Positions 17,639 through 64,000 are shown, numbered from the stretch's first letter. The stretch: 64,000 bases of DNA from an uncultured candidatus Porisulfidus sp. (GCA_963693105.1 OY843752.1:23315-87314); one strand, 5' to 3'. Numbers and translations: made by a program. Notes: generated by a model not told the origin, from the sequence alone.

Positions 17639-17657
17639 ACCCCCCTGCCCGCGCCCG

Positions 17658-29049: not shown

Positions 29050-29052
29050 GAC

Positions 29053-42252: not shown

Positions 42253-43129
42253 TGTCTTTCTCCATGGGAATATTGATTTTCACGCGGTACTCCTGCGCCT
42301 GTTGCTCGTCGTCAAAAACAAAATCGTCGCCGTAGGCCTGCACCAGGCGCCGGTGGATGTTTTTCCGCGCGACGCGGTTGCCGCGCCGACGGCGGTGCGC
42401 GATGCTGTTGACGGGATTGCGAATGTCGAACACCAGGCGGCGGCCCGGGCTGGTGACGGCGATCTTGACGGTGCCGCCGGCCAGCCGGGTTTCGATGCCG
42501 TGATAAATCGCATTCTCAATCAGCGGTTGTAAAATGATGGACGGGACCCGTATCTTCGCGGTCTCGTCGCAATCCAGCCGCCATTCAACCCGCAGCCTTT
42601 GCCCCAGCCGCAGGCGCTCCATCTCCACATAGCATTGCGCCATCCGAATTTCCTCGGCCAACGTGGTTTGTTTCTCCTGGAACAACATCATCCTGAAAAT
42701 TTCCGATAGATGCCCAAGATGAGTCTCCGCAATGTCGGGATGCGGCTTAATCAGACAAACGGTAGCATTCAGGGTGTTGAACAGAAAATGGTAGCGAATC
42801 CGGTGCAGCAGAACGTCCTCGCCGGCATCCTCCCGGGGCCGGTTCCGGCCGGAGGCGGCGGCACCGCCCACGCGGCCCTGAAAGCCCGTGCGGCACAACA
42901 GCCGCAGGCCGGCGGCGGCCACGACACAGGCCGCCAGTTGCAGAAGGACAATGAGACCGAGCCATTGCACGACGTCCGCCCGTGGGGTGGCGCCGGCGTA
43001 AATCGCAAGCAAAGCAGCGACCACGACAAACGAAATCCCGCAGAGCAGATACAGGCTCCCTTTGAGGAGAATCCGCTCCAACGGTGTCCGCCACGCAATG
43101 CCCTCATCATGCCATGATGGGAACCGCAT
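42227..43129 (-). CDS. algZ: Sensor histidine kinase partner of the LytTR regulator (AlgZ/FimS-like)
   Basis: TM N-terminus, 'HFLFNTLN' H-box, 'ENAIYHG' N-box. Overlaps the regulator gene. Confidence 0.7.
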   Translation of the reverse strand: MRFPSWHDEGIAWRTPLERILLKGSLYLLCGISFVVVAALLAIYAGATPRADVVQWLGLIVLLQLAACVVAAAGLRLLCRTGFQGRVGGAAASGRNRPREDAGEDVLLHRIRYHFLFNTLNATVCLIKPHPDIAETHLGHLSEIFRMMLFQEKQTTLAEEIRMAQCYVEMERLRLGQRLRVEWRLDCDETAKIRVPSIILQPLIENAIYHGIETRLAGGTVKIAVTSPGRRLVFDIRNPVNSIAHRRRRGNRVARKNIHRRLVQAYGDDFVFDDEQQAQEYRVKINIPMEKDNDKHLNRR

Positions 43130-50676: not shown

Positions 50677-50682
50677 CGCAAC

Positions 50683-50759
50683 TGGTAGGCGCGGCTGGAC
50701 TCGAACCAGCGACCCCCACCATGTGAAGATGGTGCTCTAACCAACTGAGCTACGCGCCC
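50683..50759 (-). tRNA. tRNA-Val (anticodon CAC)
   Basis: Reverse complement gives 'GGGCGCGTAGCTCAGTTGGTTAGAGCACCATCTTCACATGGTGGGGGTCGCTGGTTCGAGTCCAGCCGCGCCTACCA'. Cloverleaf with anticodon loop TTCACAT, close to E. coli tRNA-Val(GAC). Encoded CCA present. Confidence 0.85.
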
Positions 50760-50823
50760 GCAATCCGCGACATTTTCCGGCGCAACGGGGCCGGAAGTCA
50801 AGGCGCGTGCTATACTTCCCGCC

Positions 50824-51024
50824 ATGACCAAGCAGGAAAAAATCCAGAAAATGCTGGACATGCAAAAGCGGTTCAGGGAAAAAGAGCAAAGCGACGGCGT
50901 CTCGATGGAGGAATACCTGTCGCCGTCCGAAGGCTCGCCCCTGAACAACTACCGCCAGGAGTATATGAAACTCGCGATGGAAATCGTGGACGAAGCCCAC
51001 GAGGAAGTGGGCTCGAAGCGCTGA
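50824..51024 (+). CDS. Small hypothetical protein (66 aa, Lys/Glu-rich helical)
   Basis: ORF directly downstream of the tRNA. Plausible codon usage. No assignable family. Confidence 0.35.
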   Translation: MTKQEKIQKMLDMQKRFREKEQSDGVSMEEYLSPSEGSPLNNYRQEYMKLAMEIVDEAHEEVGSKR

Positions 51025-51042
51025 TCCATTCCACGCGCGGCA

Positions 51043-51384
51043 ATGCGGCTGAAAGTAACGGCGGGCGACCTCACCCGCGAGATGGAGCTGCCCGACGAAC
51101 TGCTGACCGGAGCCGAGGATTTCTTCACCCGCCTCGACGCCGACATGGACCGCGGCTGGCAGATGAGCCGGCGCTGGGTTGACAAGCCGGACACGATGCA
51201 ACGCTGCCAGATACTGGCCGACCGCATTCTGACCGCCTGGCACAACAAAAATCCGCAAATGGCCGGCCTCGCCGCCGCCTACATCGTAAAACGCCTGCCC
51301 AACGTCCGCCACATCACAATCGACGTGGACGGCGACATGACCCAAACCCGCTTCGAACCCGCCGCCACCGACGATGGGGGTTAA
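51043..51384 (+). CDS. Hypothetical protein (113 aa)
   Basis: Tandem with the 66-aa ORF. No assignable motif. Confidence 0.4.
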   Translation: MRLKVTAGDLTREMELPDELLTGAEDFFTRLDADMDRGWQMSRRWVDKPDTMQRCQILADRILTAWHNKNPQMAGLAAAYIVKRLPNVRHITIDVDGDMTQTRFEPAATDDGG

Positions 51385-51443
51385 CGGGCCCGTCCAATCA
51401 GACACATTGCCTTGTTTTTAATGGCATCCTGTCCAGGCAGTTC

Positions 51444-52460
51444 TCAGTGCGCCAGCAGGCGGGATTGCAGTTCGTTCCAGACGGTTGCGAGCGGCGGACG
51501 CTGCGTCGGGCGGCGGCGCACCACCGCTACCGGCAACAGGCCGCCGCCGTCGCCGCGCGCGGCGACGCGAAAGCGAAAGGCATAAAAGCCGCCCGTGCCC
51601 ATGCGCAAATCAATCCAGTCCACGCCGTCGTCGCGCTCCTCGTAAAAATAATAGCCGTGTGAAAAATAAATCAGCCGCGCCAGTTCGGGGCTGTCGGCGG
51701 CCAGCGCGTCCAGCGCCGCGCGGTCGGGATGCGCCGGCGTTTTCTCGAACACCGGCGGGCGATGCGGCGCCAGCACCGAATACCAGCCCTGCCAATGGCC
51801 GTCGGCGGTGACGGCCAGCGCCCGCCACAACACGACATTGAACGGCGTGTTCATGGTCTTGACGCCGCGATGCTCGACGCCGCGCGCGTCCAGCGCCTCG
51901 GCAAACGCCTGCCCGGCGTGAACCTTGAGCAGCAGCCCCGCGACCAGATAGGCGGTGCTGAGCGCAAGCGCCGCGGCCGTCGCGCGGCGGCGCAAACCGG
52001 GCGCGCGGCGCACCGCCAGCAGCCAGACGATGGCGGCCAGCAGCGGCGCCGTGTAAAACGGATCAATGATGAACAGGCTCGACAACGCAAACGGATAGTC
52101 GCTCAGCGGATACAGAATCTGCGTGCCGTACACCGTGCACAAATCAATCACGATGTGCGTCACAAAACACCACAGCAGCAGATGCAGCCACTGTCCGCGC
52201 GCCAGACCCGCGCGCGGAAAAACCCGCGCGCACAGCACCGACAGTCCCCACGCCGCGAACGGCGCGACGACAAACGAATGCGTCAGACCGCGGTGGCCGG
52301 TAAAACGCGCCACATCGCTGACAAAAAACGACGCCAGCAGGTCGAGGTCGGGCAAAGTGCCGGCGATGGCGCCCAGCAGCAGCGCCCGGTTGCCGATGCG
52401 CCGCCCGGCGACCGCCTCGCCGACCACCGCGCCCAGCGCCGCCTGCGTGATGGAATCCAT
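51444..52460 (-). CDS. Membrane-bound metal-dependent hydrolase (DUF457/YdjM-YbcI family) with C-terminal extension
   Basis: 'MDSITQAALGAVVGEA...HRGLTHS' N-terminus typical of the family. Multiple TM segments. Confidence 0.6.
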   Translation of the reverse strand: MDSITQAALGAVVGEAVAGRRIGNRALLLGAIAGTLPDLDLLASFFVSDVARFTGHRGLTHSFVVAPFAAWGLSVLCARVFPRAGLARGQWLHLLLWCFVTHIVIDLCTVYGTQILYPLSDYPFALSSLFIIDPFYTAPLLAAIVWLLAVRRAPGLRRRATAAALALSTAYLVAGLLLKVHAGQAFAEALDARGVEHRGVKTMNTPFNVVLWRALAVTADGHWQGWYSVLAPHRPPVFEKTPAHPDRAALDALAADSPELARLIYFSHGYYFYEERDDGVDWIDLRMGTGGFYAFRFRVAARGDGGGLLPVAVVRRRPTQRPPLATVWNELQSRLLAH

Positions 52461-52469
52461 GTCAGGCGC

Positions 52470-53123
52470 TCACCGCGCGGACGGCCCCGGATACACCACC
52501 GGCTTCGGGTCAATGCTGCGCCACAAATACCAGGTGGCGACGGTGCGCCACGGCGCCCAGCGCGCGGCAATCGCCGCCACACGCTTGTCGCCGAGCTTGC
52601 GCCCGCCGTTGTACTGCCGCTCCATCGCATTGACCAGGCCGAGGTCGCCCAGCGGCACAACATCCGGGTGCTTGAGGTAGAAAATCGCGAACATCTCGAA
52701 CGTCCAGCGGCCGACGCCCGTGATTGCCAGCAGCGCTTCGCGCACCTCGTCCAGCGGCCGCTGGCGCCAGTAGCGCGGCGTGATGCGTCCGTCAACGAAA
52801 AACCGCGCGATGTTTTTCAGATATTGCGCCTTGCGCTGCGACAGGCCGCAGCGGCGCAGCGTCTCGAAATGGCAGCGGTGCAGTTTGCGCGGCGCCAGCG
52901 CGCCGAAATGCGCCAGCAGTTTGCGCCACACGCTGTCCGCCGCTTGCAGCGAAATCTGCTGCCCGACCACCGCGCGGCACAACGTCGCGAACGCATCGCC
53001 GCCGCCGCGCAGACAACTGCCGCTGAAATCACTGACCAGGCGCGCCATCACCGGGTCGCGCCGCGACAACTCGGCGCAGGCGCGCGGCCAGTAAGCCGGG
53101 CATCGTCCGCGCCGTTCAGGCAT
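52470..53123 (-). CDS. alkA: DNA-3-methyladenine glycosylase II family (HhH-GPD, AlkA-like)
   Basis: HhH-GPD 'LLAITGVGRWTFEMF...PLGDLGL' with the catalytic Asp. Start chosen at the internal Met; the listed ORF over-extends into the ABC transporter gene. Confidence 0.7.
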   Translation of the reverse strand: MPERRGRCPAYWPRACAELSRRDPVMARLVSDFSGSCLRGGGDAFATLCRAVVGQQISLQAADSVWRKLLAHFGALAPRKLHRCHFETLRRCGLSQRKAQYLKNIARFFVDGRITPRYWRQRPLDEVREALLAITGVGRWTFEMFAIFYLKHPDVVPLGDLGLVNAMERQYNGGRKLGDKRVAAIAARWAPWRTVATWYLWRSIDPKPVVYPGPSAR

Positions 53124-54963
53124 GGGCGGCTTCGGCGGCGCGCGAGCGGCGCGATTGCAGATCCCAGAACGTGCGGTAGAGGCCGCCTTTGGCGAGCAGT
53201 TGCGCGTGCGTGCCCTGCTCGATGATGCGCCCGTTCTCCATGACCAGGATGTGCCCGATGTGAACAATGGTGGACAAGCGGTGCGCGATGACCAACGTGG
53301 TGATGTCCGCCGACGCGCGCTCCAGCGCTTCGAGTATCGCCTTCTCCGAGCGCGAGTCGAGGCTGGAAGTGGCCTCGTCGAACACCAGGATGGACGGCTT
53401 TTTCAGCACCGCGCGCGCAATCGAGACTTTCTGCTTCTCGCCGCCGGAAAGTTTCAGCCCGCGTTCGCCGACCAGGGTGTCATAACCGTCGGGCAGGCGC
53501 GTGATGAAGTCGTCGAGATCAGCGACCTTCGCCGCCGCCAGCACTTCCTCGCGCGACGCGCCGGGCGATCCGTAGAGAATGTTGTCGTATATCGTGCGAT
53601 TGAACAGCACCGTGTCCTGCGGCACGATGCCGATGCACCGGCGCAGGCTGGCCTGGGTGACCTCGCGCACATCGCGCCCGCCGACCCGGATGGCGCCGTG
53701 CTGCACATCGTAAAAGCGAAACAAAAGCCGCGCCAGCGTTGATTTACCGGAACCGGACGGGCCGACGATGGCGACCTTGCCGCCGGCGGGCACCGCAAAA
53801 CCGGCCTGCTCGATAATCTCGCGCCCCGGCCGGTAATGAAAACCGACGTTGTCGAAGACGACATCGCAAACACCGGCGCGCAACTCGGCGGCGTCGTCGC
53901 GGTCGCGCACCTCCTGCGGCTGGTCGAGCAGGCGGAAAATCAGGTCCATGTCGGCCAGCGCGTAGCGCACCGCGCGATAGACGACGCCGAGCATGCCGAG
54001 CGGCAGGAACAATTGCAGCATCATCGTGTTGACCAGAATCAGATCGCCCAGGGTCATGCTGCCGGCGGCGACGCCGGTGGCCGCGAAGAATATCACCGCC
54101 GTGAGGCCGGCGGCGATGATCAGACCCTGGCCGAAGTTCAGCGCCGACATCGTCGTCTGGCTCATCACCGCGACCTGCTCCCATTCCTTCAGCAAAGCGC
54201 CGTAGCGGCGGCATTCCATCTCCTCGCCGTTGAAGTACTTGACGGTCTCGTAGTTGATGACGCTGTCCACCGCCAGTTGGTTGGCCTGCGAGTCGAGTTC
54301 GTTCATGCGGTAGCGAAAGCGCACGCGCCAGTTCGTGAACAGCACGGTGAAGGCGACATAAACGGCGACCGTCGAGAAAACCACGGCGCCGAAGTGCGCC
54401 GGATAAAGGCCGAACAGATAGAGCGCGACCAGCGCGAATTCCGCCGCCACCGGCAGGATGTGAAAGGCGAGGTAATTGAGGAGGGTCGAAACGCTCTGCG
54501 TGCCGCGCTCCAGGTCTCTGAACACGGCGCCGGTTTCCCTCTCCAGATGAAACCGCAGCGACAACCGGTGCAGGTGCGAGAGCACCCGCAGCGACAGCCG
54601 GCGCATCGCGCGGTAGCGCACCCGCGCGAAAACAGCGTCGCGCAATTCGTTGAACAGCGCGCTCACCAGGCGCAGGCCGCCGTAGGCGAGAAGAAACACC
54701 ACCGGCAGCGCCAGCGCCCGCCCGCGCGCGGTGTCCAGCGCGTCCACGATTTCCTTGAGCACCAGCGGCACACCGATGACCGCAAGTTTGGCAATGACCA
54801 GGCAGACGAGCGCGAACACCACGCGCCCGCGGTACTCCCACAGGTACGGCAGAATCCGCCGCAGGTTGTACCAGTCGGCACGCTCGCCGTGCGGCCCGTC
54901 CGTGCGCCGCACCAGCGCCGACATCACGCGCGCCGAGTTCGCCATGCTGCGGATGCCGTCCAT
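53116..54963 (-). CDS. ABC transporter permease/ATPase fusion, ATM1/HMT1-type exporter
   Basis: TMD with 'YNLRRILPYLWEYRG'. Walker A 'GPSGSGKST', signature 'LSGGEKQK', Walker B 'ILVFDEATSSLD'. Start set at the Met 'MDGIRS'; the upstream 200 Arg-rich codons overlap ispB and are discarded. Confidence 0.8.
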   Translation of the reverse strand: MDGIRSMANSARVMSALVRRTDGPHGERADWYNLRRILPYLWEYRGRVVFALVCLVIAKLAVIGVPLVLKEIVDALDTARGRALALPVVFLLAYGGLRLVSALFNELRDAVFARVRYRAMRRLSLRVLSHLHRLSLRFHLERETGAVFRDLERGTQSVSTLLNYLAFHILPVAAEFALVALYLFGLYPAHFGAVVFSTVAVYVAFTVLFTNWRVRFRYRMNELDSQANQLAVDSVINYETVKYFNGEEMECRRYGALLKEWEQVAVMSQTTMSALNFGQGLIIAAGLTAVIFFAATGVAAGSMTLGDLILVNTMMLQLFLPLGMLGVVYRAVRYALADMDLIFRLLDQPQEVRDRDDAAELRAGVCDVVFDNVGFHYRPGREIIEQAGFAVPAGGKVAIVGPSGSGKSTLARLLFRFYDVQHGAIRVGGRDVREVTQASLRRCIGIVPQDTVLFNRTIYDNILYGSPGASREEVLAAAKVADLDDFITRLPDGYDTLVGERGLKLSGGEKQKVSIARAVLKKPSILVFDEATSSLDSRSEKAILEALERASADITTLVIAHRLSTIVHIGHILVMENGRIIEQGTHAQLLAKGGLYRTFWDLQSRRSRAAEAAHA

Positions 54964-54971
54964 CACCGGCC

Positions 54972-55943
54972 TCAGCGGTCGCGCTCCACCGCGAAATCGG
55001 CCAGTGCCTCGAGCGCCGCCTTGCCTGAAGAAGTCGCCAGCGGCGCCAGACACTCGCATGCGCGGCTCGCGTAATGGCGCGCCCTGGCGCGCACGTAATC
55101 GAGCGAGCCGGCGGACTCGAAAACCGCCAGCGCCGTGTCGAGGCCGTCGTCGCTGCCGAGGGCGCCGTGCAACGCCGCCGCTTCGTCGCGCGCGCAATGC
55201 GCCAGCGCGTGGATGAAAGGCAGCGTCGGCTTGCCTTCGCGCAAATCCTGGCCGCGGGTTTTGCCGGTGCCTGCGCCGCTGTAATCGAGCAGGTCGTCCA
55301 CCAGTTGAAACGCAAGCCCGATGTTGAGACCGAAGCGCGCCACCGACTCCTGCAAGGCGCCGCCGGCGCCGGCGACCATCGCTCCGGCGCGGCAGGCGAC
55401 CTCGAACAGCACCGCGGTCTTGCACTCGATGACCCGGATGTATTCGTCCTCGCCGGTGTCGGCGCGGCGGATGTTGACCAGTTGCCGGACCTCGCCCTCG
55501 GCAATCACGTTGGTCGCCCGCGACAACACCGCGGGCAGGCCGGCATGGCCGATTTCGCACACCATCTGAAACGCCCTTGAGTAGAGAAAATCACCGACCA
55601 GCACACTGGCGGCGTTGCCCCAGATGTTTCTGGCCGTTTGCCTGCCGCGGCGCAGCGCCGAATCGTCCACGACATCGTCGTGCAGCAAAGTCGCGGTGTG
55701 GATGAACTCGATGCCCACTGCAAGATCCAGATGGCTGCGGCGCACGCCGCCGCCGACCAGCGCCGACAACAGCACCAGCGCCGGGCGCAAGCGCTTGCCG
55801 CCGCCGATGACATGGCCGCCCAGGCGGTCTATCAGATCGAGGCCGGAATGCAGATGGCGCTCAATCAGCGCATCCACCTGCTCCAGTTCAGCGCTGATTT
55901 GTGGTATTATCTCAAAGGTTTGCACTTTTCCTGATTTTAGCAC
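54972..55943 (-). CDS. ispB: Octaprenyl-diphosphate synthase
   Basis: Aligns throughout with E. coli IspB ('IEFIHTATLLHDDVVD', 'FQLVDDLLDY', 'GKPTLP'). Divergent from rplU as in E. coli. Confidence 0.9.
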   Translation of the reverse strand: MLKSGKVQTFEIIPQISAELEQVDALIERHLHSGLDLIDRLGGHVIGGGKRLRPALVLLSALVGGGVRRSHLDLAVGIEFIHTATLLHDDVVDDSALRRGRQTARNIWGNAASVLVGDFLYSRAFQMVCEIGHAGLPAVLSRATNVIAEGEVRQLVNIRRADTGEDEYIRVIECKTAVLFEVACRAGAMVAGAGGALQESVARFGLNIGLAFQLVDDLLDYSGAGTGKTRGQDLREGKPTLPFIHALAHCARDEAAALHGALGSDDGLDTALAVFESAGSLDYVRARARHYASRACECLAPLATSSGKAALEALADFAVERDR

Positions 55944-55949
55944 CGGGGC

Positions 55950-55977
55950 TTGAATCCTCCACCCGAATGGATATAAT
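55950..55977 (+). promoter_or_regulatory. Putative sigma70 promoter TTGAAT-N16-TATAAT for the rplU operon and the small upstream ORF
   Basis: -35 at 55950-55955, -10 at 55972-55977, about 45 nt upstream of the 56025 ORF, which has a strong AAAGGAGGG RBS. Confidence 0.4.
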
Positions 55978-56024
55978 CACTGGTTCATCAACCAACCTCA
56001 ATAATAACAAAGGAGGGCCAGCTC

Positions 56025-56345
56025 ATGGCAGAACAACAACAAAATCCAGAACAGCAGCAACAAGCGGAATTTCCAAAGATTGATTTTGATCAGTTGCCGG
56101 ACATGCGCGAGACCATCTCGGGTATTATCGGGTTACTGTGCTATTCAGACACCGACCTTCGCGCCATGTTGCTTGAAGACGGACTGAACAGCAAAAATCT
56201 GACCGCTGTTGTTGACAAAATCCGGGCGTTTTACACCCAGATTGGCAAAGAAGCCCCCGACCTGTCGTGGATGGAAAAGACAAAATTCAACATCCACAAA
56301 AACGACGACAACACCTACGTCATCCCCCTGCCGCACACAGAGTGA
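56025..56345 (+). CDS. Hypothetical small protein (106 aa) at the head of the rplU-rpmA-obgE operon
   Basis: Strong RBS 'aaaggaggg'. Gln-rich N-terminus. Lower GC than its neighbours. No equivalent gene at this position in E. coli. Confidence 0.4.
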   Translation: MAEQQQNPEQQQQAEFPKIDFDQLPDMRETISGIIGLLCYSDTDLRAMLLEDGLNSKNLTAVVDKIRAFYTQIGKEAPDLSWMEKTKFNIHKNDDNTYVIPLPHTE

Positions 56346-56364
56346 ACCTTCGGGAGCAACCCCG

Positions 56365-56679
56365 ATGATTTATGCGGTAATCGCCACCGGCGGGAAACAA
56401 TACAAAGTCTCGCCGGGGGACGTCATCCAGGTCGAGAAACTCGACATGGAGGCAGGCAAGGCGATTGTTTTCGACAAGGTGTTGCTGGTGAACAACGACG
56501 GCAATCTCGACATCGGCGCACCCTATCTTGGGAACAGCGCCGTTGCCGGGAAGATCGTGCATCATGACCGTGACAAAAAAATCCGGATTATCCGCTTCAA
56601 GCGGCGCAAACGTCATTTGCGCCGCCTGGGTCATCGCCAGCCGTTCACCACCGTTGAAATTACCGGCATCCAGCCGTAA
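56365..56679 (+). CDS. rplU: 50S ribosomal protein L21
   Basis: '[27 protein letters not shown]'. The listed ORF over-extends upstream in the same frame. Confidence 0.9.
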
Positions 56680-56705
56680 CCAACCCGGCCCGGGGAGAAA
56701 ACGAT

Positions 56706-56963
56706 ATGGCGCATAAAAAAGCGGGTGGCAGCACACGCAATGGAAGAGATTCCGAGTCGAAACGCCTCGGTGTCAAGAAATTCGGCGGCGAAACGGTGAA
56801 AGCCGGCAATATTCTCGTGCGCCAGCGCGGCACCCACTTCCACGCCGGCGCCAACGTCGGTTGCGGCAGGGATCATACTCTGTTCGCAACGGCGGCAGGC
56901 GCGGTCGTGTTCGCCTGCAAAGGCCCCCGGCACAGACGCTACGTCAGCGTCGTTCCCGCCTGA
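56706..56963 (+). CDS. rpmA: 50S ribosomal protein L27
   Basis: '[28 protein letters not shown]'. Confidence 0.9.
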
Positions 56964-57020
56964 CGAAACCATGCCCTGCCGGGGTTCCCGGCCTGTTGAT
57001 TTGCCGAAACCGGGCGAACG

Positions 57021-58049
57021 ATGAAATTTGTTGATGAGACTGAAATCACCATCATGGCCGGCGACGGCGGCAACGGTTGCGTCAGTTTCCACCGCGCACG
57101 CTGCCTGCCGTCCGGCGGGCCCGATGGCGGCGACGGCGGCGACGGCGGTTGCGCCTATCTAATCGGAGACGACAACCTCAACACCCTGGTGGACTTCCGC
57201 AATCGCCGCCTGTTCCGCGCCGGCAACGGCTGCCCGGGACGCGGCGCCAACTGCACCGGCGCCGGCGGCAGTGATTTGCTGTTGCGCGTTCCGGTCGGCA
57301 CCATGGTCTATAACGGCGAAACCGCCGAGTTAATCGGCGACATCACGCAATCCGGCCAGCGGCTGCTGGTCGCAAAAGGCGGCGGCCACGGCCTCGGCAA
57401 CACCCGTTTCAAGTCCTCCACCAACCAGTCGCCGCGCCGTTCGACGCCGGGCGGCAAAGGCGAATGTCGCGCACTGACGCTGGAATTGAAACTGCTTGCC
57501 GATGTCGGCCTGGTCGGACCGCCCAACGTCGGCAAGTCCACGCTGGTGTCGGCGGTCAGCGCGGCGCATCCAAAAATCGCCGACTACCCCTTCACGACGC
57601 TTTACCCGGTGCTCGGCGTCGTCAAAACCGGTGGATACGGGAGTTTTGTCATCGCCGACATTCCCGGATTGATTGAGGGCGCCGCCGACGGCGTCGGCCT
57701 CGGCACGCAGTTTCTGAAGCACCTGCAAAGAACGCGCCTGCTGCTGCATCTGGTGGACATCGGCGCCGATGCGCCGGCAACCGGCAACCGGCGGCTGGTG
57801 TCCACACTGGAAAAAGAGATGGAGCAATTCGACACCGCTTTGACCGGCAAGGAGCGCTGGCTGGTCTGCACCAAAGCCGACACAGCAACGGCGCGCGAAA
57901 CCGACGACCGTTGCCGGCGGCTGGTCAGCGAACTGCAATGGCAACGTCCGTGGTTCAAGATATCGGCGGTTTCAGGCGAGGGGCTGGGCGATCTCACGCG
58001 CGCCGTCACGCAGTACCTGCAAAGTGAAACCGCGGCGGCCACGGCCTGA
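57021..58049 (+). CDS. obgE: GTPase Obg/CgtA
   Basis: Obg fold 'GGPDGGDGGDGG'. G1 'GPPNVGKST', G3 'DIPGLIEGA'. Confidence 0.9.
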   Translation: MKFVDETEITIMAGDGGNGCVSFHRARCLPSGGPDGGDGGDGGCAYLIGDDNLNTLVDFRNRRLFRAGNGCPGRGANCTGAGGSDLLLRVPVGTMVYNGETAELIGDITQSGQRLLVAKGGGHGLGNTRFKSSTNQSPRRSTPGGKGECRALTLELKLLADVGLVGPPNVGKSTLVSAVSAAHPKIADYPFTTLYPVLGVVKTGGYGSFVIADIPGLIEGAADGVGLGTQFLKHLQRTRLLLHLVDIGADAPATGNRRLVSTLEKEMEQFDTALTGKERWLVCTKADTATARETDDRCRRLVSELQWQRPWFKISAVSGEGLGDLTRAVTQYLQSETAAATA

Positions 58050-58054
58050 AGACC

Positions 58055-58408
58055 ATGGACACCATTCTTTTGAGAGGCCTCGAAGTCCGCGCCACAGTCG
58101 GGGTTTTCGAGTGGGAGAAGCAAATCGAGCAGACGCTGCGCATCGACCTTGAGATGGCCACCGACGCCGCCAACGCCGCCGCTTCCGACCGCCTCGAGGA
58201 CACGCTCGATTACAAGGCGGTGGCGAAGTACGTGCAGGACTTCATCGCCGGCAGCCGTTGCGCGCTGGTTGAAACGCTGGCGCATCGGCTCGCCGGGGAA
58301 TTGATGCGCGAATTCGGCATACGCTGGTTGCGGCTGAGCCTGCGCAAACCGGGCGCGGTGCGCGGTTCGAGAAGCGTCGGCGTCGTCATCGAGCGCGGAG
58401 AACGTTGA
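58055..58408 (+). CDS. folB: Dihydroneopterin aldolase
   Basis: 117 aa. 'ILLRGLEVRATVGVFEWEK' FolB signature. Confidence 0.8.
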   Translation: MDTILLRGLEVRATVGVFEWEKQIEQTLRIDLEMATDAANAAASDRLEDTLDYKAVAKYVQDFIAGSRCALVETLAHRLAGELMREFGIRWLRLSLRKPGAVRGSRSVGVVIERGER

Positions 58409-58929
58409 TGAACCGCGTGTTTGTCAGTATCGGCAGCAACATCGACAAGGAAAAAAACATCCCCTCGTGCGTCACCGCGCTGAGGAAAATATTCAGTCCG
58501 CTGACGCTGTCGTCGGTTTACCGGTCCAGGGCGTTCGGTTTCGACGGCGACGACTTCTACAACATGGCGGCTTCATTCGAAACCGCGATGCCGCCGCTGG
58601 CGGTGGATGAAATCCTGCGGCAAATCGAGAAAGACCACGGCAGGGTGCGCGGCGCCGAACGTTTCGAGTCGCGGCAACTCGACCTCGACCAGATTCTGCA
58701 CGGCGACCTGGTCGTCAGCCGCGGCGACCTGCAGCTGCCGCGCGCCGAGATTGCCGAGTACGCCTTTGTGCTGGGGCCGCTCGCCGAAATCGGCGGCAGC
58801 GTGGTGCATCCGGTGCTGAAGAAGACCTGCGCCGAATTGTGGGAGCGCTTCGACAAGACGCGGCACGAATTAACGCGCGTGCCGGTGCAATTGCCGGCAA
58901 AAGAACAGGAATTTCAACCGGTTCAATAA
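58405..58929 (+). CDS. folK: 2-amino-4-hydroxy-6-hydroxymethyldihydropteridine pyrophosphokinase
   Basis: 'VFVSIGSNI' N-terminus and 'RQLDLD' loop. folB-folK adjacency. Confidence 0.8.
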   Translation: MMNRVFVSIGSNIDKEKNIPSCVTALRKIFSPLTLSSVYRSRAFGFDGDDFYNMAASFETAMPPLAVDEILRQIEKDHGRVRGAERFESRQLDLDQILHGDLVVSRGDLQLPRAEIAEYAFVLGPLAEIGGSVVHPVLKKTCAELWERFDKTRHELTRVPVQLPAKEQEFQPVQ

Positions 58930-59001
58930 CCTTTGTCAGTGGTCTCCCGCTGCGGCGAAGTTGTTATAATCGCCGCATCCACATTGAGCAGGAGAAACTG
59001 G

Positions 59002-59385
59002 ATGAAAATACAAGCAACAACCGAATTACCGGCCACCAACGAGATTGTCTCGGCCCTGTTGGCGGGAAAATACGCCGGCGACAAAAGCCTGCTGAAAACC
59101 GTAAAGGCGAATCCGCAGAAAGCGCTGAACGGCCACGGCATGCCGATAACAGTGCGCGCCGTGCAAAACACCGAAGACACGCTCCATATCTGTGTTCCGG
59201 CTTACCATGCTCTGGACGACATGAAGATCGATGACGAGCAACTGGCGCAGGTGGCGGGTGGCGAGATTATTCTCGCCGTCATCATCGGCGCCGTCGCCTT
59301 TACGGGAATCACCTGCGCCGCCGTCGGCTTGGGCGTCACGCTGAGTGACCGCGACAAGAGAGCGCAGGAAGCCGCGGCGTCGTAA
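59002..59385 (+). CDS. NHLP (nitrile-hydratase-leader-peptide) family RiPP/bacteriocin precursor with a double-glycine leader and a hydrophobic Gly-rich core
   Basis: Leader 'NPQKALNGHGMPITVRAVQNTEDTLHICVPAYHAL..DDEQLAQVAGG' fits the NHLP pattern (...DP.A...G..LPEG.E..VVE.T..T.YLVLP....LSDEELE.VAGG). Core 'EIILAVIIGAVAFTGITCAAVGLGVTLSDRDKRAQEAAAS'. GGAGA RBS 7 nt upstream. The listed ORF starts 23 codons earlier inside folK. Confidence 0.55.
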   Translation: MKIQATTELPATNEIVSALLAGKYAGDKSLLKTVKANPQKALNGHGMPITVRAVQNTEDTLHICVPAYHALDDMKIDDEQLAQVAGGEIILAVIIGAVAFTGITCAAVGLGVTLSDRDKRAQEAAAS

Positions 59386-59406
59386 TCATGCACCGGCGCC
59401 GCAGTG

Positions 59407-60156
59407 TCAATCGCCCGGAGTCCGCCCGCCGTCCACGGCAATGGTCTGACCGGTGATATAACCGGCGGCCGTCACCAGAAACAGCACCGTCCGCGCCACG
59501 TCCGCGGGTTCGCCCGCGCGCCCAAGCGCGGTGCGCCGCATGATCTCGCGGCGGCGCGGTTCGTCGTCCCCTTCCGGCCACAGTATCGCGCCGGGAGCAA
59601 CCGCGTTGCAGCGCACTTCCGGCGCCAGTTCACGCGCAAGCGAGCGCGTCAGCATCGCCAGCCCGGCTTTCGTCGCGCAATAGGCTGCGTGGTTTTTCAA
59701 CGGATGCGCGGCGTAGAAGTCGGTCAGGTTGACGATGCAGCCTTTGCGGCGCCTTAATTCCGCCGCCAATTGGCCCGCCAGAAAAAAAGGCGCTTTCAGA
59801 TGAACGCCGATGAGTTCATCCAGCTGCGCTTCGTCCGGGTCGCCTAGCGCGGTTTCGCGGAACACCGAGGCGTTGTTGATGAGCGCGTCGAGACGCCGCC
59901 AGCGCGCCAGCGCCGCGCGCGCCAGTTCGCGCACCTCCTCCGGACGGCACAGGTCGGCGGACAACACGCAGGCCGAATCGCGCCGCGCGCCGTTCAGATC
60001 CTCCGCCAACACACGCGCCTCGGACTGCGACCGGCGGCAGTGCAACACCACGTTGATGCCGGCCTCGTGCAGCGTCTTTGCGATGCACGCACCGATGCGC
60101 CGCCCGGCGCCGGTAACCAGCGCCACTTTGTGGTCGTCCCTTGTCAAACTGTTCAC
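59407..60156 (-). CDS. SDR-family oxidoreductase, probable pteridine/dihydromonapterin reductase (FolM-like)
   Basis: 'VALVTGAGRRIG' Rossmann motif. 'YCATKAG' YxxxK. Adjacent to folBK. Confidence 0.65.
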   Translation of the reverse strand: MNSLTRDDHKVALVTGAGRRIGACIAKTLHEAGINVVLHCRRSQSEARVLAEDLNGARRDSACVLSADLCRPEEVRELARAALARWRRLDALINNASVFRETALGDPDEAQLDELIGVHLKAPFFLAGQLAAELRRRKGCIVNLTDFYAAHPLKNHAAYCATKAGLAMLTRSLARELAPEVRCNAVAPGAILWPEGDDEPRRREIMRRTALGRAGEPADVARTVLFLVTAAGYITGQTIAVDGGRTPGD

Positions 60157-60219
60157 CGCAAACGAATTCAGGCCGGGCTGTTATACTCGGCGCCCAATAC
60201 TACCCTGTATTGCCCCCCG

Positions 60220-61014
60220 ATGGAGACTTTTCAAAGCGTTGTTCTGGCCCTGCTGCAGGGCGTCACCGAGTTTCTGCCGGTGTCGAGTTCGGCGCATCTG
60301 GTGCTGGCGCGCGACTGGCTGGGCTGGGAGGGGGAACGGCTCGTCTTTGACGTCACGGTTCACGCCGGCACGTTGTGCGCGGTGATTTTCCATTATCGGA
60401 AGCAACTGGCGGCCCTGTTGCGCGCCTGCCTGCCGCACACGCCGCACGACGACGAAAATTTCCGGCTGCTCACCGCCATCGCCGTCGCCTCGCTGCCGGT
60501 GCTGGTCGCGGGCTTCTGGTTCGAGCCGTTGATCAAGGCGCATTTGCGCACGGTGCCGGTCATCGCCGCGGCCACCATCGTCTTCGCGCTGGCACTGTGG
60601 CTGGCCGATGTGCGGCGCGCGGGCGATGCAAACGCGGTGACGCTGCGCGGCGCGGTGTGGATCGGGCTGGCGCAGATGCTGGCGCTGGTTCCGGGCACTT
60701 CGCGCGCCGGCGTCGTCATCACCGCCGGCCTGCTGCTCGGGTTGTCGCGCCGGCAATCCGCGCATTTTTCGTTTCTGCTGGCGATTCCGGTCATTCTCGC
60801 CGCCACCGCGCTGGAGGCGGTTCAACTGGCGCGCGGGATGAGCGTCGAGGCGGCGGCGCTGCCGTCGCTGGTCATCGGCTTTGCCGTGTCCGCGGTGTTC
60901 GCGCTGGCGACCATCCGGCTGTTCATCCGTTTTGTCGAAAAAATCGGCCTGCTGCCTTTCGTTCTCTACCGCCTGTTGCTCGGCGCGGTTCTGCTCGGCC
61001 TCATATCTCTCTGA
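60220..61014 (+). CDS. uppP: Undecaprenyl-diphosphatase (BacA/UppP)
   Basis: 'GVTEFLPVSSSAHL' and 'PGTSRAG' conserved BacA motifs. Listed ORF trimmed to the ATG. Confidence 0.85.
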   Translation: METFQSVVLALLQGVTEFLPVSSSAHLVLARDWLGWEGERLVFDVTVHAGTLCAVIFHYRKQLAALLRACLPHTPHDDENFRLLTAIAVASLPVLVAGFWFEPLIKAHLRTVPVIAAATIVFALALWLADVRRAGDANAVTLRGAVWIGLAQMLALVPGTSRAGVVITAGLLLGLSRRQSAHFSFLLAIPVILAATALEAVQLARGMSVEAAALPSLVIGFAVSAVFALATIRLFIRFVEKIGLLPFVLYRLLLGAVLLGLISL

Positions 61015-62107
61015 GCGCGTCGAGTTTCAATTCGCGCACGCGCCGCTTGATGTCGCCCGCGCGCCCATCGCAAGCCGCGAGCGCCGTCTCGAAATCAATG
61101 CCGCCGAGCGCACGCAACGCCTGGCGTATGCGCGCCGCACCGCGCGGCGGCGGCGCGGCGCGGCAAAGCGAGCAAACCGTCAGCAGCGATTCAAAGCGCT
61201 TGCCCTTGCGAAGGGCGTCGGCGCCTTCCAGCAGGTCGAGCAGTTCCTCGCGCGACAACACGTCCGCCCGGCAAAGCGGTTCAAGAAAACGTCCGGTGGC
61301 CGACACCAGCCAGCGGCAGCGGTTCGGAAGTTTCAGCCGCTCGCACAGCGATGTCAGCAATGGCGCGGAGCCGGCAAAACAGGCCAGCAGCGCCAGCAGA
61401 ATCTCCGGCGGCTGGCGCGCCGCGGCGGCTTCGTCCAGCACGCGCATCGCGCGCGCGCCGCCGCCGGGCAGCGCATGGATTTCCGGCAACACGCGCGCCA
61501 GCGCACCGGCCTGATTCAGCACGTCGAAAAAGACCGACGGGTGCGTGGTCGCAAACGCTTTTTCCATCTCCTGCCAGACGCGCTCGGCGACGAGACAATC
61601 GGCCTCGCCCGATTCCACCATGGCGCGCATCAGCGTCATGGTGCCGGCGGCGATTGTAAAACCGGCGCCGCGCAGTTTCGCGGCAAAACGCGCGGCGCGC
61701 AATATTCGCACCGGATCCTCGGCAAAGGCCGGCGAAATATGCCGCAACGTGCGCGACTCGACATCCGCGCGTCCGCCGCAGGGATCCACCAGCCGTTCGT
61801 CGGCGGTGCGCGCCATGGCGTTGACGGTCAGATCGCGGCGCGCCAGATCCTGTTCCAACGTCACACCCGGCTCGGCGTAAAACGAAAAACCGTGATAACC
61901 GGGCGCGGTCTTGCGCTCGGTACGCGCGAGCGCATATTCCTCGCCGCTTTCGGGATGAATGAACACCGGAAAATGCCTGCCGACCGGCTTGAACCCCCGC
62001 GCCAGCATGTCCTCGCGCGTGGCGCCGACGACCACCCAGTCCTTTTCAGTGACGGGCAGGCCGAGCAATTCGTCGCGGACGCTGCCGCCAACCCGGTAAA
62101 TCTCCAT
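61001..62107 (-). CDS. cca: CCA-adding tRNA nucleotidyltransferase (class II head domain; no obvious HD domain)
   Basis: 'MEIYRVGGSVRDELLG...DLTVNA' polymerase-beta-like nucleotidyltransferase head. Confidence 0.8.
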   Translation of the reverse strand: MEIYRVGGSVRDELLGLPVTEKDWVVVGATREDMLARGFKPVGRHFPVFIHPESGEEYALARTERKTAPGYHGFSFYAEPGVTLEQDLARRDLTVNAMARTADERLVDPCGGRADVESRTLRHISPAFAEDPVRILRAARFAAKLRGAGFTIAAGTMTLMRAMVESGEADCLVAERVWQEMEKAFATTHPSVFFDVLNQAGALARVLPEIHALPGGGARAMRVLDEAAAARQPPEILLALLACFAGSAPLLTSLCERLKLPNRCRWLVSATGRFLEPLCRADVLSREELLDLLEGADALRKGKRFESLLTVCSLCRAAPPPRGAARIRQALRALGGIDFETALAACDGRAGDIKRRVRELKLDALREI

Positions 62108-62247
62108 GTCAGCGCGCTACGCGCATCTCCGTGAACCGTTGCAAGGTGGATACATCGGCGAATCTCCTCAAGCCAGAGCCGAACATTAGCACAGTTGCGC
62201 CAGTGTATGGTATGGTAGGCGACTGCAAAAGACTGGATAAGCCCGGT

Positions 62248-63141
62248 ATGTTTCGCTTGATTAAAAATCGTCGGTGGCTGCCGGCACTGGCCTGCTGGCT
62301 GGCGCTGACCGCGGCCGCCGCCAATGTAACCGAGAACCCGCTTTACCGGCAGGCGCTGGAACAATTCGATGCCGGCGACCTCGAAGGCTCCCACCGCCTG
62401 TTCAAACAACTCGAAGAAGACCACCCGGACAACCCCGGCATCCTGAACAATCTCGGAATCATCGCCGCCCGTCTCGGCCAGTTTGATCTGGCGTCGCGCC
62501 TGCTGGAAAAAGCCATCGCCACCAACCCGGCCATCGCCACCAGCCACAGAAACCTGCGCGCGCTCTACGCGCATCAGGCGTCGCAGGCGTACAAACGCGC
62601 GCTGGCGCTCGACTCGGTGGAAGTCGCCGCGCCGCAATACGAGGCAGTCGGCATCGTGGCGGGCGCGCCGCCGGCGCAACATTCAACCCCGTCCGATGTC
62701 CTGTCCGATGTCGTATTGTCCGCCAGGGAAATCGAAAAGCCGCTGATTGAGGAGCCGGAAGAACCGCCGCCGCCGGAAACCGCCGACGCCGACGACGACG
62801 CGCTCATCACCGCAAGCATCGAGCGCTGGGCGCAAGCCTGGGCCGGCAGGGATCTCGACGGTTACTTCGCCAGTTACGCACAGGACTACCGGCCACGTTC
62901 CGGCGCCGACCACGAGGGCTGGAGACAACAGCGCCGCGAACGCATCCTCGGGCCGCGCCGCATCAGCGTAAAAATCTCCAATCTTTCGGTCCAGAGCAAT
63001 GACGGCCGTTCGGCCAGCGTTGTCTTCGACCAGGCCTACCGCTCCAACCTGCTCGACAGCACCGTGGTCAAGCGGATGTCGCTGCAAAACACCGGTGACG
63101 GCTGGAAAATCACGCGCGAGCGGATTCTCCGGCGGCTATGA
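62248..63141 (+). CDS. Secreted TPR-repeat protein with a C-terminal SnoaL/NTF2-like domain
   Basis: Signal-like 'MFRLIKNRRWLPALACWLALTAAAA'. TPR helices. C-terminal 'IERWAQAWAGRDLDGYFASYAQDY' NTF2-like. The listed ORF begins 39 codons earlier. Confidence 0.5.
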   Translation: MFRLIKNRRWLPALACWLALTAAAANVTENPLYRQALEQFDAGDLEGSHRLFKQLEEDHPDNPGILNNLGIIAARLGQFDLASRLLEKAIATNPAIATSHRNLRALYAHQASQAYKRALALDSVEVAAPQYEAVGIVAGAPPAQHSTPSDVLSDVVLSAREIEKPLIEEPEEPPPPETADADDDALITASIERWAQAWAGRDLDGYFASYAQDYRPRSGADHEGWRQQRRERILGPRRISVKISNLSVQSNDGRSASVVFDQAYRSNLLDSTVVKRMSLQNTGDGWKITRERILRRL

Positions 63142-64000
63142 AGATGAACGGGAAAGCGGCGGCGTTCATCGCCGGCGCCTTGCTGGCGACGGCTGGCGCG
63201 GCGCCGGCAGTGGAAAGGGAGCAGGCCGAGACCGAGCTGAACCGGGCGCTTGAAGCCCTCGTCTCAGGGCGGCAGCAGGACGCGCTGACGACCCTGTCCG
63301 AATTGCTGCAACGTTATCCGAACTTCCAGATCGCAGCCATGGCCTACGCCGACCTGCTGGCGGCGCAGGCCCAGCAACCGGCGTTGCTGCCGCTGGCCGA
63401 CGCCGACGCCAAACGCCGCCTCTCCGACCTGCTTGAAGAGACGAAGGCGCGAGTGCGCCACCGCCCCGCCGATGCCGGTCAATTGCCCGCCAACATCGTC
63501 CGGCTGTCGGGCCGTCACCGTCACGCGCTGGTCTTCGACGCCGCGCGGTCGCGGCTTTATCTGTTTGAGAACCATCGCAACACGCCGCTGCTGGTCGCCG
63601 ATTACTACGCCTCCTACGGCAAGGGCGGCATGGACAAACACAGCGAAGGCGACAACCGGACGCCCACCGGCGTTTACCGGATTACCCACAGCCTTGCCGA
63701 CGACAATCTGGCGGAACTCTACGGCGTCGGCGCCTACCCGCTCGACTACCCCAACGCATGGGACCGCGCCCGCCGCCGCAGCGGCCACGGCATCTGGCTG
63801 CACGGCGTGCCGCGCATCACCTACAGCCGCCCGCCGAAGGCGAGCCGCGGCTGCATCGTCACCAGCAACGAAGTGATACACCAACTCAGGCGGCGCATGA
63901 AACCCGAGTCCGTGCCGGTGATTCTGGCGGGCGACGTCGCCTGGCTGGACCACGAACAGTGGCAAGACAGGCGCGAAGCCCTGCTGGAGGTCATCGGACA
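63138..64000 (+). CDS. L,D-transpeptidase (YkuD domain), 3'-truncated by the window end
   Basis: Signal peptide. 'HGIWLHG...SRGCIV' catalytic His/Cys. ATGA overlap with the upstream gene. Absent from the ORF track because no stop lies within the window. Confidence 0.7.
   Translation, partial: MKMNGKAAAFIAGALLATAGAAPAVEREQAETELNRALEALVSGRQQDALTTLSELLQRYPNFQIAAMAYADLLAAQAQQPALLPLADADAKRRLSDLLEETKARVRHRPADAGQLPANIVRLSGRHRHALVFDAARSRLYLFENHRNTPLLVADYYASYGKGGMDKHSEGDNRTPTGVYRITHSLADDNLAELYGVGAYPLDYPNAWDRARRRSGHGIWLHGVPRITYSRPPKASRGCIVTSNEVIHQLRRRMKPESVPVILAGDVAWLDHEQWQDRREALLEVIG

What the first reader, a model, noticed from the sequence alone, without database searches (positions are those of the whole stretch)
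58930..59400. Orphan NHLP-type double-glycine leader peptide with a hydrophobic, Gly-zipper core next to folBK
The ORF starting at 59002 matches the nitrile-hydratase-leader-peptide family over roughly 85 residues, including the '...VQNTEDTLHICVPA...' and '...DDEQLAQVAGG' hallmarks. The double-Gly site is normally cleaved by a C39 peptidase-containing ABC transporter. The 40-aa core (EIILAVIIGAVAFTGITCAAVGLGVTLSDRDKRAQEAAAS) is a GxxxG-rich single-Cys hydrophobic segment rather than a Cys/Ser/Thr-rich TOMM or lanthipeptide core. No cyclodehydratase, radical SAM enzyme, LanM or PCAT transporter is present within about 5 kb. The nearest ABC exporter (53.1 kb) lacks a peptidase domain. This may be an unmodified or trans-modified bacteriocin-like or membrane-active peptide exported by machinery encoded elsewhere.
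Basis: partly seen in the sequence, partly recalled or inferred. Interest (0 to 1): 0.7.

Follow-up and report, generated by a model that had tools for sequence, protein, structure and literature searches.

The report
Multi-copy NHLP-leader hydrophobic peptide precursor
This is a real, conserved small gene in a sulfur-oxidising sponge-symbiont bacterium, one of at least nine sister genes that join a long nitrile-hydratase-like leader ending in Gly-Gly to a greasy peptide, and it most likely makes a secreted bacteriocin-like peptide whose processing machinery lies elsewhere in the genome.

Summary
The ORF at 59002-59385 (+) is real. It has its own Shine-Dalgarno site and an extended -10 promoter element. 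Orthologs hold the same folK / pteridine-reductase slot in related sponge-symbiont Gammaproteobacteria, and the leader is under purifying selection (dN/dS about 0.25).

Its 87-residue N-terminus is a divergent NHLP-clan leader. TIGR03793 scores only 22.1 bits (cutoff 50.9), but a family profile hits solved NHLP leaders at E 2.7e-11 and nitrile hydratase alpha at 3e-5. The leader ends in a canonical double-glycine signal: I-12, L-7, V-4, GG.

The 40-residue core (3973 Da) has one hydrophobic segment, one Cys and no strict GxxxG.

The gene is not an orphan at genome scale. A 98%-identical sister strain carries eight more paralogs within 17 kb downstream. About 145 related clusters share the architecture: GG, usually Glu at +1, and an Ala/Gly/Val/Ile-rich, Cys-poor core. 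Paralogs share a promoter-proximal DNA motif.

No C39 transporter or RiPP enzyme lies in the window or within 10 kb of at least ten family loci, so any machinery acts in trans. I could not check the whole genome.

Best reading: a leader-guided, GG-cleaved, exported membrane-active peptide. It is a new variant of a known kind, of moderate interest.

The parts
58920..58938 (+). Conserved promoter-proximal DNA motif GGTTCAATAACCTTTGTCA. It overlaps the folK stop codon (58927-58929).
   Evidence: It is the only match in the 64-kb window, with 0 expected from shuffles. The same motif lies 63-82 nt upstream of four paralogs and of the orthologs, and further upstream (about 180-197 nt from the start of the HMM match) of distant family members in L015 and L023. 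It also occurs at the rho promoter in two genomes.
58962..58970 (+). Extended -10 promoter element TGtTATAAT, 31 nt before the ATG. The -35 region is weak.
   Evidence: Read from the sequence. The consensus scan, which needs both hexamers, reported none. Orthologs keep TATAAT at the same offset.
58990..58995 (+). Shine-Dalgarno sequence AGGAGA, 6 nt before the ATG.
   Evidence: Paralogs and orthologs carry GGAGG or AGGAG at the same place.
59002..59262 (+). Leader domain, residues 1-87. It is an NHLP-clan (nitrile-hydratase-alpha-like) fold ending in the double-glycine signal I76(-12) L81(-7) V84(-4) G86 G87.
59263..59382 (+). Core peptide, residues 88-127: EIILAVIIGAVAFTGITCAAVGLGVTLSDRDKRAQEAAAS. 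The hydrophobic segment spans about residues 89-114 and is followed by a charged tail. The stop codon is at 59383-59385.
   Evidence: Kyte-Doolittle 19-residue maximum of 2.46 at residue 89; mass 3972.6 Da; 1 Cys; no strict GxxxG. The core varies between orthologs and gives low AF2 confidence.
56025..56345 (+). Possibly associated: a 106-aa ORF upstream of rplU that looks like an NHLP-type leader domain with no GG and no core.

Best explanation
The gene encodes a two-part precursor. Residues 1-87 form a folded, nitrile-hydratase-alpha-derived (NHLP-clan) leader. Its last helix carries the canonical double-glycine export and cleavage signal: hydrophobic residues at -12, -7 and -4, then G86-G87. 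Residues 88-127 are the cargo: an N-terminal Glu, a roughly 26-residue Ala/Gly/Val/Ile-rich hydrophobic segment, and a short charged tail.

It is transcribed from its own promoter, which carries an upstream motif shared with its paralogs.

Inferred steps: a cysteine protease encoded elsewhere in the genome recognises the leader helix and cuts after G87. This would be the C39 domain of a peptidase-containing ABC transporter, or a stand-alone PoyH-like C1A enzyme. The approximately 4-kDa peptide is then exported. It acts as a membrane-inserting, class-II-bacteriocin- or microcin-like peptide, probably with little or no side-chain modification, because the core has almost no Cys, Ser or Thr chemistry to modify.

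The gene is one member of a one-leader, many-cargo family of at least 9 paralogs per genome, some with soluble cargos. The arrangement is analogous to the dispersed prochlorosin precursors that are served by a single machinery.

Shown here: gene reality, leader homology, the GG-signal geometry, core composition, paralogy, the shared promoter motif, and the absence of local machinery. Inferred: cleavage, export, lack of modification, and membrane activity.
For: - Gene reality: syntenic orthologs and purifying selection.
- NHLP homology at profile level, aligned through to the terminal GG. 49 of 57 members hit TIGR03793, 7 hit nitrile hydratase alpha, and 10 hit the class IIb bacteriocin model TIGR03949 through the GG plus Gly-rich core. 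PF10439 Bacteriocin_IIc gives a weak hit at residues 76-110.
- Family-wide signal: -12 is L in 98 of 134, -7 is L or M in 123 of 134, -4 is V or I in 126 of 134, and GG is invariant. This matches the -4/-7/-12 plus GG recognition rule for C39 proteases and the LDQAAGG rule for PoyH described in PMC10885120. The window has LAQVAGG.
- AF2 places a helix at residues 78-85, just before the GG.
- The same leader is fused at the GG to unrelated cargos, both hydrophobic and soluble, in one genome. Leader pairwise identity has a median of 46%, the core 25%.
- The cores are A 21%, G 18%, V 14%, I 10% and C 0.5%. The C-terminal tails range from net charge -4 to +7, which argues against a fixed membrane topology in the producer.
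- There is no N-terminal signal peptide.
Against: - No Peptidase_C39, HlyD, or any RiPP enzyme was found in the 64-kb window or within 10 kb of at least ten family loci in several genomes. The whole genome could not be scanned, so the required protease and exporter are unverified.
- The TIGR03793 score is below its cutoff.
- No adjacent immunity gene is present.
- An 87-residue leader is far longer than class II bacteriocin leaders.
- There are no expression or peptide data.
Confidence: 0.55

Rival explanations
1. Proteusin-type RiPP. The NHLP leader recruits tailoring enzymes encoded elsewhere, for example a radical-SAM epimerase or methyltransferases as in polytheonamides. The hydrophobic core is heavily modified, possibly into a D/L-alternating beta-helical pore former, before the leader is removed at the GG.
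For: NHLP-clan leader. The -7 to -1 sequence LAQVAGG resembles the PoyH recognition sequence LDQAAGG. The Val/Ala/Gly/Ile-rich cores are the kind of sequence seen in polytheonamide-type precursors (my own knowledge, not tested here). The sponge-symbiont origin is suggested by MAG names containing STY4 and PNGst.
Against: No radical-SAM gene other than a housekeeping one between ndk and rodZ, and no YcaO, LanM or methyltransferase, lies near any of at least ten loci. Known proteusin clusters keep the precursor next to its enzymes. The cores are hypervariable in length (19-100 aa) and include soluble cargos, which is hard to reconcile with one dedicated tailoring chemistry.
Confidence: 0.2
2. 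The protein is not cleaved. It is a small tail-anchored membrane protein with a cytoplasmic nitrile-hydratase-alpha-like domain tethered by the C-terminal hydrophobic segment. In this reading the GG is a flexible hinge, and the family is a lineage-specific expansion of membrane-associated proteins.
For: There is one clear transmembrane-length segment and no signal peptide. No protease or exporter was found nearby (all context calls). A core-less homolog of the domain exists as a free-standing, highly conserved protein, which suggests the domain may have a function of its own.
Against: The -12/-7/-4/GG pattern is conserved exactly as in cleaved leaders. The same domain is fused at the GG to soluble 20-62-residue cargos. 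The hydrophobic regions vary from 19 to about 100 residues, and tail charge runs from -4 to +7, which is inconsistent with one topology. The leader is more conserved than the 'anchor', although that pattern is also expected for an anchor.
Confidence: 0.15
3. A spurious or decaying ORF in a GC-rich intergenic region, with no function.
For: Spurious long ORFs are frequent in this 62% GC window.
Against: Syntenic orthologs in at least 3 related genomes with a leader dN/dS of 0.24-0.33. A good ribosome-binding site and -10 element. GC3 exceeds GC2, as in real genes. 147 homologous clusters.
Confidence: 0.02

Closest known systems
NHLP (nitrile hydratase leader peptide, TIGR03793) / proteusin precursor family (Haft et al. 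2010, PMC2887384)
   Same: The leader is a long (about 85 aa), folded domain homologous to nitrile hydratase alpha, without the catalytic metal-binding Cys cluster, and it ends in ...L(S/T)DE(E/Q)L..(V/I)xGG. The cores are hypervariable, and there are several paralogs per genome.
   Different: It scores below the curated cutoff (22.1 against 50.9 bits). The core is hydrophobic, Ala/Gly/Val/Ile-rich and almost free of Cys. Glu at +1 is typical of this subfamily (105 of 145). The precursors are never next to cyclodehydratase, LanM, radical-SAM or NHLM export genes in the loci examined. Instead they are inserted between housekeeping operons.
Class II (unmodified) double-glycine-leader bacteriocins and class II microcins (e.g. 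the lactobin A/cerein 7B family TIGR03949; Pfam PF10439)
   Same: A GG cleavage signal with hydrophobic residues at -4, -7 and -12. The mature part is a Gly/Ala-rich hydrophobic peptide of about 40-90 residues, which fits membrane activity. 10 of 57 family members hit TIGR03949.
   Different: The leader is 87 residues and folded, instead of 15-30 residues. There is no adjacent immunity, PCAT or membrane-fusion gene. The window protein's own PF10439 hit is sub-threshold (13.7 against 27.1 bits).
Prochlorosin-type systems (Nif11-leader precursors dispersed in the genome and served by one ProcM and one transporter)
   Same: Many precursor genes with a conserved long leader and hypervariable cores, scattered singly and in tandem across a small genome away from the machinery.
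   Different: The leader clan differs (NHLP rather than Nif11). The cores lack the Cys, Ser and Thr needed for lanthionine rings. The trans-acting enzyme or transporter has not been identified here.
srp proteusins of sponge microbiomes (LCCCW cores, YcaO and brominase; 10.1101/2023.06.09.544420)
   Same: NHLP-type precursors from sponge-associated bacteria.
   Different: srp precursors are about 84 aa, have a conserved LCCCW core, and often sit next to YcaO or halogenase genes. None of that applies here.

Membership tests
NHLP leader peptide family (TIGR03793) | HMM score at or above the curated cutoff (50.9 bits) | tested here: not met
   22.1 bits, E 9.9e-05, residues 23-87.
NHLP leader peptide family (TIGR03793) | Homology of the leader to nitrile hydratase alpha and to characterised NHLP leaders | tested here: met
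   [not shown]
NHLP leader peptide family (TIGR03793) | Gly-Gly cleavage motif at the end of the leader, and loss of the NHase metal-binding Cys cluster | tested here: met
   G86 and G87 are invariant in the 57-sequence alignment. The leader has a single Cys (C64), so no Cys cluster is present.
NHLP leader peptide family (TIGR03793) | Association with TOMM, lanthipeptide or radical-SAM tailoring genes, or with the NHLM export cassette (TIGR03794/03796/03797) | tested here: not met
   None is present in the window or within 10 kb of at least ten family loci. The only nearby ABC exporter lacks the peptidase domain. Genome-wide presence could not be tested.
Class II double-glycine-leader bacteriocin / class II microcin | GG site preceded by hydrophobic residues at -4, -7 and -12 | tested here: met
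   The window has V84, L81 and I76. The rule is as stated in PMC10885120.
Class II double-glycine-leader bacteriocin / class II microcin | Short (15-30 aa) unstructured leader | tested here: not met
   The leader is 87 aa with a confidently folded region (pLDDT 74-88).
Class II double-glycine-leader bacteriocin / class II microcin | Match to a bacteriocin core model | tested here: inconclusive
   PF10439 gives E 0.065 and 13.7 bits against a cutoff of 27.1 for the window protein. TIGR03949 is hit by 10 of 57 family members, with a best E of 2.4e-4.
Class II double-glycine-leader bacteriocin / class II microcin | Adjacent immunity gene and PCAT or membrane-fusion-protein export genes | tested here: not met
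   The flanks are folK and a pteridine reductase. No such genes occur in any locus examined.
Polytheonamide-type proteusins | Clustered radical-SAM epimerase, methyltransferases and a C1A protease | tested here: not met
   Absent from all loci. The only Radical_SAM hit is a housekeeping gene between ndk and rodZ in L016. Presence elsewhere in the genome could not be tested.
GlyGly-CTERM / rhombosortase sorting signal | An N-terminal Sec signal peptide plus a C-terminal GG, transmembrane segment and basic cluster that matches TIGR03501 | tested here: not met
   No hydrophobic N-terminus (maximum KD19 in the leader is 0.7). No NCBIfam hit other than TIGR03793 even at E up to 10. Family tails are often acidic.
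Prochlorosin-like one-machinery / many-precursor system | Many dispersed precursors with a conserved leader and hypervariable cores | tested here: met
   Nine paralogs lie within 17 kb in the sister strain, 4+1 in L016, 3 in L023, and at least 7 family ORFs on five contigs of MAG PNGst_S_binSS2. Leader identity has a median of 46% and core 25%.
Prochlorosin-like one-machinery / many-precursor system | A single trans-acting modifying enzyme or transporter in the genome | not testable with these tools
The genome and metagenome scans and the contig look-ups are exhausted.

The most novel reading that the evidence does not exclude
The NHLP-type leader in these reduced-genome sponge symbionts is not a RiPP-biosynthesis handle. 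It is the address tag of a general, leader-dependent secretion and processing route. That route delivers a whole repertoire of cargos, both hydrophobic Gly/Ala-rich peptides and 60-residue soluble domains, to the host or to competitors. The repertoire is co-regulated through a shared promoter motif. The highly conserved core-less NHLP-domain protein (56025-56345) would act as a partner, decoy or regulator of the pathway.
Probability: 0.15. Interest if true: 0.75.

Novelty: new variant of a known kind. Interest (0 to 1): 0.48.

Why it matters
If the reading is right, these small-genome, sulfur-oxidising sponge symbionts spend a notable share of their coding capacity on a repertoire of leader-tagged hydrophobic peptides. 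The genes are scattered among housekeeping operons, so cluster-based genome miners cannot see them. antiSMASH and RODEO key on tailoring enzymes, and the curated NHLP model scores this protein below its threshold.

The family of about 145 clusters has no Pfam or NCBIfam model of its own, and every copy that carries a source name is annotated 'hypothetical protein'. A dedicated model would expose a class of candidate membrane-active peptides from uncultured symbionts. It would also give a tractable test case for how NHLP leaders work when no modification enzyme is nearby.

The practical follow-up is simple: scan the genome for C39 or C1A proteases, run a cleavage assay, and do peptidomics at 3973 Da.

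Tried and rejected
- **Paralogs inside the window.** A leader HMM run against all six-frame ORFs found only the gene itself.
- **Single-sequence search against PDB.** Only noise.
- **Foldseek of the full model against PDB.** Nothing significant; the best hit was SonA at E 1.2.
- **Walking downstream of the paralog array.** P0012 was not on record. Look-ups of P0006, P0018 and P0009 returned only 0.7-3 kb contigs.
- **Genome-collection scan.** The narrower one found only 6 loci in two MAGs.
- **Viral scan.** It found nothing, so there is no sign of phage carriage.
- **GlyGly-CTERM / rhombosortase signal.** Rejected: no signal peptide and no model hit.
- **srp proteusins.** Rejected: they have an LCCCW core and a YcaO/halogenase context.
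- **Os1348-type NHLP cluster.** Rejected: that is an 85-aa protein with adjacent modification and efflux genes.
- **Sigma-54 or ECF promoter reading of the upstream motif.** Rejected on spacing, by inspection.
- **The neighbouring ABC exporter as the dedicated transporter.** Rejected: it is MsbA-like, has no C39 domain, and is conserved simply as part of the ispB synteny.
- **Literature searches** for this architecture (NHLP with class II microcin, glycine-rich, or PCAT terms) found no description of it.

Full report
**1. What is in the sequence**

An ATG-initiated ORF runs from 59002 to 59385 on the + strand and encodes 127 aa. It is preceded by AGGAGA (58990-58995) and by a perfect extended -10 element, TGtTATAAT (58962-58970), with a weak -35. 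The two-hexamer consensus scan therefore reported no promoter.

The gene sits 72 nt after folK, and folB and folK are confirmed. It converges on a pteridine reductase gene (NF006598, 323.6 bits, above the cutoff of 288).

The product splits at G86-G87 into an 87-residue N-terminal part and a 40-residue C-terminal part, EIILAVIIGAVAFTGITCAAVGLGVTLSDRDKRAQEAAAS. That core weighs 3972.6 Da. It has one Cys, one hydrophobic segment (19-residue Kyte-Doolittle windows above 1.6 start at residues 80-97, with the peak at 89), no strict GxxxG and three small-xxx-small pairs. There is no N-terminal signal peptide.

**2. The gene is real**

Exact or near orthologs (64-72% identity) occupy the same slot in other assemblies. 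The conserved order is ABC exporter, ispB, a 103-108-aa ORF, rplU, rpmA, obg, folB, folK, this gene, an SDR and uppP. These come from MAGs labelled Gammaproteobacteria bacterium (isolates PNGst_S_binSS2 and STY4_bin_4) and from JGI and Logan metagenomes.

Nei-Gojobori dN/dS for the leader is 0.24-0.33 at dS of about 0.5. The core evolves faster, at about 0.75 on few sites. The window itself is 62% GC and carries dsrAB, dsrL-like and dsrP-like genes, candidate soxYZ (assigned from the start of the sequence only), a Mrp antiporter, spoT, recG and the hem genes. It therefore comes from a small-genome sulfur oxidiser.

**3. What the leader is**

On its own, the protein hits TIGR03793 (NHLP leader) over residues 23-87 at E 9.9e-05 and 22.1 bits. 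That is far under the curated cutoff of 50.9, and Pfam gives nothing above threshold.

Homology is nevertheless firm at profile level:
- A profile search of 1.84 billion cluster representatives found 147 related clusters.
- A 57-sequence profile hits the solved NHLP leaders 8tb1_A (E 2.7e-11) and 9cjx_A (2e-6) and nitrile hydratase alpha 1v29_A (3.2e-5). The alignments run through to the terminal ...LSDEEL..V.GG.
- 49 of 57 members hit TIGR03793 and 7 hit nitrile hydratase alpha.

**4. The double-glycine signal**

In the window protein, positions -12, -7, -4, -2 and -1 are I76, L81, V84, G86 and G87. Across 134 hydrophobic-core family members:
- -12 is Leu in 98.
- -11 is Ser or Thr in 88.
- -9 is Glu or Asp in 97.
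- -7 is Leu or Met in 123.
- -4 is Val or Ile in 126.
- The GG is invariant in the 57-sequence alignment.

This is the pattern that C39 peptidase domains of PCATs read: hydrophobic pockets for -4, -7 and -12, then GG. The -7 to -1 stretch LAQVAGG also resembles LDQAAGG, the recognition sequence of the stand-alone C1A protease PoyH. Both rules are reviewed in PMC10885120.

**5. The family**

Of the 150 sequences examined (the 147 clusters found in the deep search plus the window protein and two orthologs), 145 have a recognisable GG-type site.
- The +1 residue is Glu in 105.
- 127 have a strongly hydrophobic start to the core.
- The median core length is 47 aa.
- 112 cores have no Cys.
- Core composition is A 21%, G 18%, V 14%, I 10%, T 7% and C 0.5%.
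- The last ten residues range from net charge -4 to +7.

Ten members hit the class IIb bacteriocin model TIGR03949 through the GG plus Gly-rich core. No source gives any member a name other than 'hypothetical protein'. I found no paper describing the architecture. srp proteusins and the Os1348 system are different things.

**6. Not an orphan**

The second-best hit of the deep search, P0005, lies 8.2 kb downstream of the same gene on ENA contig ERZ22155170:ctg25956l. That contig is 98.3-98.6% identical to the window over the 15 kb they share, so it is a sister strain.

P0001 and P0005 are each recorded on the same two contigs, including the 1.83-Mb NCBI contig. At least this paralog is therefore also in the genome the window appears to come from, about 3 kb beyond the window's end.

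In the sister strain, eight further paralogs lie within 17 kb:
- Two after rho.
- Six between an OxyR-like LysR gene and a TonB-dependent receptor.

Two of the eight carry a soluble 62-residue cargo instead of a hydrophobic one. Each of these follows a hydrophobic-core gene by about 80 nt. Within this set, leader identity has a median of 46% and core identity 25%.

Other genomes show the same habit:
- Four tandem copies after hisS plus one after der.
- One between rpsR and rplI in two lineages.
- Three tandem copies in L023.
- At least seven family ORFs on five contigs of MAG PNGst_S_binSS2.

**7. Machinery**

All window ORFs of 300 aa or more on plausible frames, plus the unknowns, were scanned. 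They are housekeeping, apart from a DNA methylase island and a Cas6-like gene. Precomputed Pfam covers 48988-64000.

The ABC exporter at 53116-54963 (-) is MsbA-like. It aligns to the NHLP-PCAT model only from position 156, so it has no C39 domain.

In at least ten distinct family contexts, no Peptidase_C39, HlyD, YcaO, LanM/LanC or dedicated radical-SAM gene occurs within 10 kb. Any protease, exporter or tailoring enzyme must therefore act in trans.

**8. Shared regulation**

A 19-nt motif, GGTTCA-N3-ACYTYTGTCA, occurs once in the window, at 58920-58938, overlapping the folK stop. None is expected by chance.

The same motif precedes four of the eight sister-strain paralogs and the orthologs. 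It also precedes distant family members in L015 and L023, whose proteins are only about 30% identical. In each case it lies immediately or one helical turn upstream of a -35/-10 pair. It is also found at the rho promoter in two genomes.

It is either an UP-like element or an activator site. Its 5' end (CCGTTCA in the orthologs) resembles the AlgR consensus CCGTTCGTC (PMC4787818), and a LytTR response regulator with an adjacent putative sensor-kinase gene lies at 41479-43129. This is a lead only.

**9. Interpretation**

The combination points to a leader-guided, GG-cleaved and exported peptide family, with confidence of about 0.55 for the unmodified or lightly modified bacteriocin/microcin-like version:
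- A conserved, folded leader.
- A canonical GG signal.
- Fusion of that leader at the GG to unrelated cargos.
- Fast-evolving cores.
- Variable tail charge.

Rivals:
- A trans-modified proteusin (0.2).
- An uncleaved tail-anchored membrane protein (0.15).
- A spurious ORF (0.02).

**10. Novelty and score**

This is a new variant of a known kind. It is an unmodelled NHLP-clan subfamily with class-II-microcin-like cores, dispersed among housekeeping genes of reduced sponge-symbiont genomes. It is a useful genome-mining lead rather than a conceptual surprise. Interest is 0.48.

Noticed in passing
L009 10001-10396, 10777-11172, 15194-15592, 15671-16123, 16248-16670, 16959-17363, 17449-17901, 17936-18328 (sister strain, 3-12 kb beyond the window's 3' end): Eight paralogs of the window gene. 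Two (15671-16123 and 17449-17901) carry a soluble 62-residue cargo ending in GFG or GIG, and each follows a hydrophobic-core paralog by about 80 nt, as if in an operon. The same hydrophobic-then-soluble pairing is seen in MAG contig L013.
   Followed up: partly
window 58920-58938; L009 9902, 10690, 15095, 16859; L023 8009, 8955, 9870; L015 7717; L008 13903: A conserved motif, GGTTCA-N3-ACYTYTGTCA, lies just upstream of the promoters of family genes, even in members only about 30% identical. It also occurs at the rho promoter in two genomes. Its 5' part resembles the AlgR site CCGTTCGTC.
   Followed up: partly
[not shown]
   Followed up: partly
window 4912-5592 (-): A solo Cas6/Cmx6-type protein (PF09559 at 190 bits; TIGR02807 at 122.8 bits, above its cutoff of 98.85) next to a TauD-family dioxygenase. 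Tandem Repeats Finder reports no CRISPR-like array anywhere in the window.
   Followed up: partly
window 28342-30264 (-) and 10-1479 (+): Low-GC islands (GC3 of 0.46-0.60 against about 0.8 elsewhere). One holds an N6/N4 DNA methylase (PF01555) with an unknown 235-aa partner. The other is a 489-aa ORF with no family hit. Both are probably horizontally acquired.
   Followed up: no
window 32115-32231: A 47-bp tandem repeat, 2.5 copies at 97% identity, between Mrp antiporter genes.
   Followed up: no
window 41479-43129 (-): A LytTR-family response regulator (BtsR/AlgR-like) with an adjacent putative sensor-kinase gene that has no NCBIfam hit, in the Pseudomonas-like arrangement argH / sensor / regulator / hemC-D-X-Y. 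It is a candidate regulator for the shared motif.
   Followed up: no
L019 10511-11422; L020 10652-11539: In two other genomes the family member sits between rpsR and rplI. It is followed by a conserved 295-303-aa protein with no Pfam hit.
   Followed up: no
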